A DNA stretch of 54,189 bases, taken from the NCBI RefSeq assembly GCF_003334335.1, contig NZ_QOWQ01000032.1; one strand, given 5' to 3'. Of the stretch, positions 37,520 through 38,520 are shown in pieces. Both the position numbers and the translations under genes were made by a program. Each line of letters opens with the position of its first letter. Within the stretch, counting starts at the first letter, position 1. Origin of the DNA: Escherichia coli. Lineage in GTDB: Bacteria; Pseudomonadota; Gammaproteobacteria; Enterobacterales; Enterobacteriaceae. The notes beneath the pieces are model-generated. The model was not told the origin of the DNA and made no database searches. It saw only the letters and a program-made list of their open reading frames with translations.

Positions 37520-38520
37520 ATGAGTAAAGTTGGTATTAACGGTTTTGGTCGTATCGGTCGACTGGTGTTGGGTCGATTACTTGAAGTCAAAAGCAACATA
37601 GACGTTGTCGCTATTAATGATCTCACTTCCCCATAAATTCTCGCCTACCTGCTGAAACATGATTCAAACTACGGACCATTCCCCTGGAGCGTTGATTTTA
37701 CGGAAGATTCACTTATCGTTGATGGGAAAAGTATCGCGGTTTACGCCGAAAAAGAGGCTAAAAATATTCCGTGGAAAGCGAAAGGTGCAGAAATCATTGT
37801 CGAATGTACTGGCTTTTATACCTCCGCCGAGAAATCGCAGGCGCATCTTGATGCTGGTGCGAAGAAGGTGTTGATTTCCGCCCCTGCCGGTGAAATGAAA
37901 ACTATCGTTTATAACGTCAATGACGACACTCTGGATGGCAACGACACCATTGTTTCCGTGGCGTCATGCACCACTAACTGTCTTGCGCCGATGGCCAAAG
38001 CCTTGCATGACAGTTTCGGGATAGAAGTCGGCACGATGACGACCATTCATGCCTATACTGGCACCCAGTCACTGGTGGATGGCCCGCGTGGTAAAGATTT
38101 ACGTGCTTCACGCGCAGCGGCAGAAAATATCATTCCCCACACTACGGGGGCGGCAAAAGCCATTGGTCTGGTGATCCCGGAACTGAGCGGCAAACTGAAA
38201 GGTCATGCGCAACGCGTGCCGGTGAAAACAGGTTCGGTCACTGAACTGGTATCGATTCTCGGAAAAAAGTGACTGCCGAAGAGGTGAATAACGCACTTAA
38301 ACAAGCAACCACCAATAACGAGTCATTTGGTTATACCGATGAAGAAATAGTCTCTTCCGATATCATTGGCAGCCATTTCGGTTCGGTGTTTGATGCCACG
38401 CAAACGGAAATTACCGCCGTGGGCGATTTACAACTGGTGAAAACGGTCGCCTGGTACGATAACGAATATGGCTTCGTCACACAGCTTATTCGCACCCTCG
38501 AAAAATTCGCTAAACTCTGA
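37520..38520 (+). pseudogene. gapC: glyceraldehyde-3-phosphate dehydrogenase C, disrupted
   Basis: [16 protein letters not shown]... with in-frame TAA at 37634-37636 (after ...NDLTSP). Frameshift in an A-run near 38265-38272 (GKK then stop, versus expected GKKVTAEEV). Catalytic SCTTNC is present in the middle fragment. Track shows three fragments: 37659-37874, 37868-38272 and 38269-38520. Confidence 0.85.

What the first reader, a model, noticed from the sequence alone, without database searches (positions are those of the whole stretch)
37520..38520. gapC is a decayed GAPDH paralog with two lesions
The reading frame carries an in-frame TAA at codon 39 (37634-37636) and a 1-nt slip in a poly-A run near 38265-38272, yet is otherwise well conserved, including the catalytic SCTTNC. 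This suggests recent inactivation. Frameshifts in homopolymer runs can be phase-variable, or a sequencing artefact.
Basis: seen in the sequence. Interest (0 to 1): 0.3.

Follow-up and report, generated by a model that had tools for sequence, protein, structure and literature searches.

The report
Known dead gapC gene of E. coli
This is the well-known broken copy of a second glyceraldehyde-3-phosphate dehydrogenase gene (gapC) carried by E. coli K-12 and its natural relatives; it is an ordinary, recently inactivated pseudogene.

Summary
From the ATG at 37520 the frame meets TAA at 37634-37636 (codon 39). The rest of the protein continues in another frame to 38520. SCTTNC (37964-37981) is intact. 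The 1001 bases are identical to the annotated K-12 MG1655 pseudogene gapC (b4493). Intact alleles read AAA (Lys39) and A7. Their product is 100% identical to PDB 7C5F, an active enzyme. A third derived change, R18G, hits a residue invariant in the six orthologous sequences aligned. Among 5426 complete E. coli genomes, about 1152 carry the TAA and about 1041 carry A6. A6 is never found without TAA on this sequence background. TAA with A7 does occur, in 3 genomes on this background and at least 60 on another. The nonsense mutation, linked to R18G, therefore came first and the frameshift second. The closest intact allele (ATCC 8739) differs only at these three sites, with no synonymous change, so inactivation is recent. 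Intact alleles evolve under strong purifying selection (dN/dS 0.01-0.05). Sequencing artefact and phase variation are rejected. One curiosity: the deletion creates a dnaX-type A_AAA_AAG slippery site whose -1 slip would restore the native sequence, but the upstream TAA makes this moot. Already known; low interest.

The parts
37520..38520 (+). gapC pseudogene (type I glyceraldehyde-3-phosphate dehydrogenase), whole former coding region
   Evidence: Identical base for base to NC_000913.3 1489713-1490713 (complement), annotated pseudogene gapC b4493. PGAP calls the identical sequence 'gap, frameshifted; internal stop'. The pieces match TIGR01534 GAPDH-I.
37510..37513 (+). Shine-Dalgarno GGAG, 6 nt before the ATG (still intact)
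   Evidence: Read directly from the sequence.
37571..37573 (+). Codon 18, GGT (Gly). Intact alleles have CGT (Arg). Missense R18G specific to the pseudogene lineage.
   Evidence: Alignment of alleles. R18 is invariant in the six full-length orthologous sequences aligned: E. coli, E. albertii, Citrobacter, Trabulsiella, Klebsiella, Scandinavium. It is completely linked to the TAA: neither single-change haplotype was found in 5426 genomes.
37634..37636 (+). In-frame TAA at codon 39 (lesion 1). Intact alleles have AAA (Lys39).
   Evidence: The exact 60-mer carrying the TAA is present in 1152 of 5426 complete E. coli genomes.
37964..37981 (+). Catalytic motif SCTTNC (residues 149-154, Cys150), intact
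   Evidence: Cys150 and His177 were shown to be essential in the identical intact protein EcGAPDH1 (PMC8615399).
38263..38268 (+). A6 run (lesion 2). Intact alleles have A7, so this is a 1-nt deletion and frameshift. With G38269 it forms A_AAA_AAG in the 0 frame.
   Evidence: The exact 60-mer with A6 is present in 1041 of 5426 genomes and never occurs with Lys39 on this background.
38270..38272 (+). Premature TGA reached in the 0 frame straight after the frameshift
38269..38520 (+). Out-of-frame 3' remnant encoding the last 83 residues of GapC (VTAEEV...FAKL), ending at TGA 38518-38520
   Evidence: TIGR01534 positions 257-330, E 6e-22. Identical to residues 251-333 of the intact protein.
38530..38549 (.). 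GC-rich hairpin GCGGAGG-AAAAAA-CCTCCGC between the convergent gapC and aldA genes; probable shared terminator
   Evidence: Read directly from the sequence. The consensus scan did not call it, because its T-tail is weak. The terminator role is an inference.
37332..37519 (+). cybB-gapC intergenic region holding the gapC promoter and 5' leader
   Evidence: A sigma-S RNA polymerase ChIP peak is reported at gapC_1/cybB in MG1655 (PMC4447067). rpoS-dependent transcription of gapC_1 and gapC_2 is reported (PMC2759082). No good sigma-70 consensus lies inside the region.

Best explanation
The region is the gapC pseudogene, the inactivated copy of E. coli's second type I NAD-dependent glyceraldehyde-3-phosphate dehydrogenase. 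This paralogue is 46% identical to the housekeeping GapA. In most E. coli and in other Enterobacteriaceae the gene is intact, encodes an active enzyme and is under strong purifying selection. In one natural clade that includes K-12 and the strain of this window, it was knocked out in steps. First came a linked pair of point mutations: R18G and K39>TAA. Then one A was lost from an A7 run at codon 249/250. The locus is still transcribed according to the literature. Translation, however, stops after 38 residues, inside the NAD-binding domain, so no functional enzyme is made. GapA carries the glycolytic flux. The order of mutations and the sequence facts are shown here. The absence of any protein product and the neutrality of the loss are inferred.
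For: The sequence is identical to the annotated pseudogene b4493. PGAP annotates it as 'frameshifted; internal stop' in strains 100% identical to the window. Both lesions were read directly and placed against intact alleles. The intact allele scores above the curated cut-off of TIGR01534 (447 vs 367 bits) and below the cut-offs of the GapA-type and Epd models. Its product is 100% identical to PDB 7C5F, an enzyme with measured GAPDH activity (PMC8615399). Orthologues are 88-97% identical in E. albertii, Citrobacter, Trabulsiella and Klebsiella. Intact E. coli alleles have dN/dS of 0.01-0.05. The window allele differs from the intact ATCC 8739 allele only at 37571, 37634 and the A-run, with no synonymous difference. 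Haplotype counts in 5426 genomes are as follows. TAA occurs in 1152 and A6 in 1041. TAA+A7 occurs in 3 genomes on the same background, one of them identical over 3.7 kb apart from the run, and in at least 60 on another background. Lys39+A6 occurs in none. Some strains have decayed further, for example an extra 1-nt deletion in OkiPb01684. The literature treats gapC as a K-12 pseudogene that is still transcribed and is used as a neutral integration site.
Against: Nothing in the data contradicts it. Three residual points remain. The promoter and Shine-Dalgarno are intact and transcription persists, so a 38-residue N-terminal peptide is presumably made. The frameshift site is an A_AAA_AAG slippery heptamer, so that lesion alone would be slightly leaky. 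No proteomic data were available to show that no GapC polypeptide exists.
Confidence: 0.95

Rival explanations
1. One or both lesions are sequencing or assembly errors, and the gene is really intact in this strain.
For: Homopolymer length errors are common in some sequencing technologies. Three genomes carry A7 on an otherwise identical background.
Against: The exact TAA 60-mer is present in 1152 independently produced complete genomes and the exact A6 60-mer in 1041. These include the Sanger-era MG1655 reference and isolates from many laboratories and hosts. The TAA is a substitution, not a homopolymer error.
Confidence: 0.01
2. The A-run is a phase-variable (contingency) switch that turns gapC on and off by slipped-strand mispairing.
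For: The lesion lies in a homopolymer. Both A6 and A7 exist in the species, and three TAA genomes on the same background have A7, which could be A6>A7 reversions.
Against: Run length follows lineage. A6 occurs only with the TAA allele (0 genomes with Lys39+A6), and A7 occurs everywhere else sampled. Runs of 6-7 A are shorter than typical contingency tracts (established knowledge). With TAA at codon 39, switching the run cannot restore expression, so selection cannot maintain a switch. The three A7 genomes are equally well explained as the ancestral intermediate.
Confidence: 0.02
3. The gene is expressed by recoding. Low-level read-through of UAA, plus -1 ribosomal frameshifting on A_AAA_AAG, which would restore the exact native sequence, gives a trace of full-length active GapC.
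For: GG[A AAA AAG] TGA at 38263-38272 is the dnaX-type heptamer in the correct 0 frame, followed at once by a 0-frame stop. A -1 slip reads ...[10 protein letters not shown]..., identical to the intact protein. Such V_VV.A_AA.G heptamers shift at about 0.3% without stimulators and up to about 3.7% in favourable contexts (PMC4066793).
Against: UAA is efficiently terminated in E. coli (established knowledge). No downstream stimulatory structure was found (z = -0.8), and there is no obvious upstream internal Shine-Dalgarno. The combined yield would be about 1e-5 or less of normal. The heptamer arises automatically when one A is lost from GGA AAA AAA GTG, so its presence needs no selection. R18G additionally alters an invariant residue.
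Confidence: 0.02
4. The fragments have a new function. Candidates are the 38-residue N-terminal peptide, an internally initiated fragment carrying the catalytic domain, or the transcript acting as a regulatory RNA.
For: The promoter, Shine-Dalgarno and transcription are retained.
Against: The first in-frame start after the TAA is a GTG at 37868 (residue 117) with no ATG before it, and a product from there would lack the NAD-binding N-terminus. Rfam finds no RNA family in the gene. Strains in the clade add further lesions, and other strains delete most of the gene through IS1. This points to no constraint. The clade is too young for retention of the promoter to mean anything.
Confidence: 0.01

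Closest known systems
gapC pseudogene of E. coli K-12 MG1655 (b4493; formerly split as gapC_1 b1417 and gapC_2 b1416)
   Same: All 1001 bases are identical and lie in the same position between cybB and aldA.
   Different: Nothing differs within the gene. The flanks differ from MG1655 at 4 positions in 5 kb, so the window comes from a close natural relative rather than from MG1655 itself.
Intact E. coli GapC, the 'type 1 GAPDH' EcGAPDH1 (PDB 7C5F and related entries; RefSeq WP_000048667.1 in BL21, ATCC 8739 and PCP06171)
   Same: Same gene and locus. The window would encode the same protein apart from three changes.
   Different: The window has R18G, K39>stop and a 1-nt deletion at codons 249/250, so it cannot make the enzyme.
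E. coli GapA (housekeeping GAPDH, PDB 1S7C/1GAD) and Epd (GapB, erythrose-4-phosphate dehydrogenase)
   Same: Same type I GAPDH fold family, with the same catalytic Cys/His and the SCTTNC motif.
   Different: GapC is only 46% identical to GapA. It scores far below the curated cut-offs of the GapA-type model (300 vs 662 bits) and the Epd models (277-280 vs 531-539 bits). It is a separate paralogue.
dnaX programmed -1 frameshift site (A_AAA_AAG)
   Same: The same heptamer in the same register relative to the 0 frame.
   Different: There is no downstream stem-loop and no evident upstream internal Shine-Dalgarno. The heptamer is a by-product of a deletion in a dead gene rather than a conserved signal.

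Membership tests
Type I glyceraldehyde-3-phosphate dehydrogenase (TIGR01534; Pfam PF00044 + PF02800) | Full-length match above the curated family threshold | tested here: met
   The intact allele (L003) scores 447.3 bits against a cut-off of 367.2, covering profile positions 1-330. The window's own pieces cover positions 40-254 and 257-330. Homologues carry PF00044 and PF02800.
Type I glyceraldehyde-3-phosphate dehydrogenase (TIGR01534; Pfam PF00044 + PF02800) | Catalytic Cys in SCTTNC, catalytic His, and the N-terminal GxGxxG NAD-binding motif | tested here: met
   SCTTNC lies at residues 149-154, His177 is present and GFGRIG lies at residues 8-13. Cys150 and His177 are essential in the identical enzyme (PMC8615399).
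Type I glyceraldehyde-3-phosphate dehydrogenase (TIGR01534; Pfam PF00044 + PF02800) | An uninterrupted reading frame able to give a functional enzyme | tested here: not met
   There is a TAA at codon 39 and a -1 nt frameshift at 38263-38268. The locus is a pseudogene of this family, not a working member.
Pseudogene by recent point inactivation | Disabling lesions relative to intact orthologues or alleles at the same locus | tested here: met
   Intact alleles lie at the same cybB-aldA position in BL21, ATCC 8739, O157-like strains, Nissle and others. The lesions were mapped.
Pseudogene by recent point inactivation | Relaxed constraint or further decay within the lineage, against purifying selection on intact copies | tested here: met
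   Intact alleles have dN/dS of 0.01-0.05. The pseudogene lineage has 0 synonymous changes against 1 missense, 1 nonsense and 1 frameshift. The lesions accumulated in nested order, and OkiPb01684 carries a further deletion. The counts are small, so the contrast in rates is only indicative.
Pseudogene by recent point inactivation | No functional protein product | not testable with these tools
   This needs proteomics or enzyme assays in a gapA-deleted background. The literature states that lab strains yield a truncated protein (PMC2949598, citing Espinosa-Urgel and Kolter).
Phase-variable contingency locus | Homopolymer length varies among close relatives independently of phylogeny and toggles an otherwise intact frame | tested here: not met
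   A6 is confined to the TAA lineage and never occurs with Lys39. The frame is already closed upstream. Only 3 of about 1040 genomes on the same background differ in run length.
Programmed -1 ribosomal frameshift (dnaX-like) | Slippery X_XXY_YYZ heptamer in the 0 frame | tested here: met
   A_AAA_AAG lies at 38263-38269 in register with the 0 frame.
Programmed -1 ribosomal frameshift (dnaX-like) | Stimulatory elements (downstream structure or upstream internal Shine-Dalgarno) and evolutionary conservation of the shifted arrangement | tested here: not met
   The downstream 71 nt fold no better than shuffles (z = -0.8). The arrangement is absent from all orthologues and from about 80% of E. coli, which have A7 in a single frame.

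The most novel reading that the evidence does not exclude
The A7>A6 deletion happens to create a dnaX-type A_AAA_AAG slippery heptamer in the 0 frame, immediately followed by a stop. A -1 slip there restores the exact native GapC sequence. The frameshift lesion would then be translationally leaky, at roughly 0.3% to a few percent. In a cell that also suppresses or reads through the UAA at codon 39, for example one with an ochre suppressor, a trace of active GapC could be made. In that case the gene would not be completely dead.
Probability: 0.03. Interest if true: 0.25.

Novelty: already known. Interest (0 to 1): 0.07.

Why it matters
It matters little beyond correct annotation. gapC should be treated as a pseudogene in K-12-like strains, where it already serves as a neutral integration site, and as a working second GAPDH in most other E. 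coli. The population data add one modest refinement. A secondary source states that laboratory strains accumulated the gapC mutations (PMC2949598). In fact the same doubly broken allele is fixed in roughly a fifth of sequenced complete E. coli genomes, including isolates from humans, pigs, poultry, cattle, wild animals and water. It therefore predates laboratory domestication. The nested haplotypes give a clean small example of ordered pseudogene decay: nonsense first, then frameshift, then sporadic further deletions.

Tried and rejected
1. Sequencing artefact: rejected by allele counts in 5426 complete genomes.

2. Phase variation: tested with synthetic haplotype queries. Lys39+A6 was found in 0 genomes and TAA+A7 on the same background in 3. 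Rejected.

3. Order of R18G and K39*: neither single-change intermediate exists in the collection, so the order is unresolved.

4. Programmed frameshift: the region downstream of the slippery site folds no better than shuffled sequence, and no paper links gapC to frameshifting.

5. Hidden RNA gene in or antisense to gapC: the Rfam E-value scan of 36300-38700 found only the known RydC sRNA, which lies outside the gene.

6. Promoter and terminator consensus scan: no convincing sigma-70 promoter in the cybB-gapC spacer, and the gapC/aldA hairpin was not called. This fits the reported sigma-S dependence but is uninformative by itself.

7. Antisense or alternative ORFs across the region: none exceeds 75 aa and none has any support.

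8. The literature claim that gapC was 'laterally acquired' (PMC1796617): not pursued in depth. Orthologues at 88-97% identity in E. albertii, Citrobacter, Klebsiella and Trabulsiella suggest the gene is old in Enterobacteriaceae.

9. The original Espinosa-Urgel and Kolter 1998 and Hidalgo 1996 papers are not in the searchable library. Only secondary citations could be read.

Full report
**What is in the sequence**

An ORF with a good Shine-Dalgarno (GGAG, 37510-37513) starts at ATG 37520 and encodes a type I GAPDH N-terminus ([14 protein letters not shown]...). It stops at TAA 37634-37636, which is codon 39. The same frame stays open after the stop and continues to encode GAPDH. It includes the catalytic SCTTNC (37964-37981; Cys150) and His177 (38048-38050). 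This runs up to an A6 run at 38263-38268, after which the frame ends at TGA 38270-38272. The last 83 residues (VTAEEV...EKFAKL) are encoded from 38269 in the frame one base back, and end at TGA 38518-38520. The two large pieces match the NCBIfam type I GAPDH model TIGR01534 at positions 40-254 (E 5e-89) and 257-330 (E 6e-22). The only slip is that the A-run lies at 38263-38268 rather than 38265-38272.

**Identity of the locus**

The 1001 bases are identical to the annotated pseudogene gapC (b4493) of E. coli K-12 MG1655, NC_000913.3 1489713-1490713 complement. The locus lies between cybB and aldA, with rydC, ydcA, hokB/sokB and trg on the cybB side. NCBI's PGAP pipeline labels the same sequence 'frameshifted; internal stop' in other strains. 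The flanks differ from MG1655 at 4 positions in 5 kb. The 24-kb right part of the window is 100% identical to several clinical and animal isolates. The window therefore comes from a natural close relative of K-12.

**What the intact gene is**

In strains such as PCP06171, BL21, ATCC 8739, an O157-like strain and Nissle 1917, the same locus holds an uninterrupted 333-codon gene.
- Its product exceeds the curated cut-off of TIGR01534 (447 vs 367 bits). It falls far below the cut-offs of the GapA-type model (300 vs 662) and the Epd models (277-280 vs 531-539).
- It is 46% identical to E. coli GapA. I recalled the GapA sequence from memory and verified it against PDB 1S7C.
- It is 100% identical to PDB 7C5F, published as 'EcGAPDH1'. 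That enzyme is active, with Km 0.73 mM for G3P, and Cys150 and His177 are essential (PMC8615399).
- Orthologues at 88-97% identity occur in E. albertii, Citrobacter, Trabulsiella, Klebsiella and others.
- Six intact E. coli alleles differ almost only at synonymous sites, giving pairwise dN/dS of 0.01-0.05. Where the gene is intact it is clearly maintained by selection.

**The lesions**

Aligned with intact alleles, the window allele has three derived changes:
- A>T at 37634, turning AAA (Lys39) into TAA.
- Loss of one A from an A7 run, so that GGA AAA AAA GTG becomes GGA AAA AAG TGA.
R18 is invariant in the six full-length orthologous sequences aligned, from six species in five genera.

The intact ATCC 8739 allele differs from the window at exactly these three positions and at no synonymous site. 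This supports very recent inactivation.

I counted haplotypes among 5426 complete E. coli genomes:

| Haplotype | Genomes |
|---|---|
| Exact 60-mer with TAA | 1152 |
| Exact 60-mer with A6 | 1041 |
| Lys39 + A6, window background | 0 |
| TAA + A7, window background | 3 |
| TAA + A7, BL21-like 3' half | at least 60 |
| G18 + Lys39 | 0 |
| R18 + TAA | 0 |

The carriers include many natural isolates from humans, pigs, poultry, cattle, an opossum, wild birds and water, as well as K-12 derivatives. One of the three same-background TAA+A7 genomes, ETEC1706, is identical to the window over 3.7 kb apart from the run.

The frameshift is thus nested inside the nonsense lineage. R18G and K39* came first and are completely linked, and the loss of the A came later. 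A few strains have decayed further, for example an extra 1-nt deletion at 38507 in OkiPb01684.

This rules out a sequencing artefact. It also argues strongly against phase variation. Run length tracks lineage, and the upstream TAA means run length cannot switch expression.

**Mechanism**

The literature reports that the promoter is still active. There is sigma-S polymerase binding at gapC_1/cybB (PMC4447067) and rpoS-dependent transcription of gapC_1 and gapC_2 (PMC2759082). The promoter also shows environment-specific activation, while lab strains yield a truncated protein (PMC2949598, citing Espinosa-Urgel and Kolter).

Translation from the intact Shine-Dalgarno and ATG should end after 38 residues, inside the NAD-binding domain. 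The first in-frame start after the TAA is a GTG at residue 117, so no useful re-initiation is expected. I infer that no active enzyme is made and that GapA supplies all GAPDH activity. Metabolic engineers use the locus as a neutral integration site (PMC7677707).

**A curiosity**

The deletion leaves GG[A AAA AAG] TGA. This is the dnaX-type -1 slippery heptamer in the correct register, followed at once by a stop. A -1 slip would read ...[10 protein letters not shown]..., which is exactly the native sequence.

Such heptamers shift at about 0.3% without stimulators and up to about 3.7% in the best contexts (PMC4066793). No downstream structure is present (z = -0.8). The heptamer is an automatic by-product of removing one A. 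The TAA 630 nt upstream keeps ribosomes from reaching it. I rate functional recoding at about 2-3%.

**Other checks**

- Rfam finds nothing within gapC on either strand. The only match is the known RydC sRNA at 36727-36790.
- A consensus scan finds no strong sigma-70 promoter in the spacer.
- Between gapC and aldA lies a GC-rich hairpin (38530-38549), probably a shared terminator. This is an inference.
- gapC is damaged independently in other E. coli. There are in-frame deletions of 15-19 residues around the active site in LF82 and other strains. An IS1-mediated deletion removes most of gapC and part of aldA in SCPM-O-B-7615. The gene therefore appears dispensable in some niches despite strong constraint elsewhere.

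**Verdict**

The artefact and phase-variation hedges are rejected. This is the textbook gapC pseudogene of the K-12 lineage. It is already known and of low interest.

The small additions here are the third change (R18G), the inferred order of events, and the demonstration that the broken allele is a natural clade marker present in about 20% of complete E. coli genomes rather than a product of laboratory domestication.

Noticed in passing
window 38263-38272: The 1-nt deletion creates A_AAA_AAG (the dnaX-type -1 slippery heptamer) in the 0 frame, directly followed by TGA. A -1 slip would regenerate the exact native GapC sequence. No downstream stimulatory hairpin was found.
   Followed up: partly
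window 37571: A third change specific to the pseudogene lineage: CGT>GGT (R18G), at a residue invariant in the six full-length orthologous sequences aligned. It is completely linked to the TAA in 5426 genomes.
   Followed up: yes
window 36727-36790 (+): The known sRNA RydC (Rfam RF00505, 92.5 bits) lies between ydcA and cybB, as in MG1655.
   Followed up: no
L004 (E. coli BL21) 234-931: BL21 has an IS1A insertion in the cybB-gapC spacer, just upstream of its intact gapC. This may alter gapC promoter activity in that strain.
   Followed up: no
L011 (strain SCPM-O-B-7615) 3101-5278: An independent inactivation: IS1A sits where most of gapC and the 3' end of aldA have been deleted.
   Followed up: partly
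proteins P0047 (E. coli LF82), P0036, P0030: Other E. coli carry in-frame deletions of 15-19 residues in GapC. One removes the SCTTNC motif and one lies just before it. This suggests recurrent, independent loss of function.
   Followed up: partly
L005 (strain OkiPb01684), equivalent to window 38507: Within the doubly broken clade, this strain has a further 1-nt deletion near the 3' end of gapC, showing ongoing decay.
   Followed up: partly
L001 (strain 720632) 5742-6898: An IS600 insertion lies between aldA and ydcF in a strain whose gapC region is 100% identical to the window. The last ~77 nt of the window (54113-54189) match only some genomes, and those genomes hold many more matching places for the query, so they may belong to a repeated element.
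   Followed up: no
(E. coli genomes): Three to five of the gapC matches lie on records typed as plasmids, which is unexpected for this chromosomal locus. They may be mis-assigned replicons or captured chromosomal segments.
   Followed up: no
proteins P0002-P0005, P0019 (383 aa): Some metagenome gene calls extend GapC by 50 residues at the N-terminus. This is probably an upstream start chosen by the gene caller and not a real isoform.
   Followed up: no
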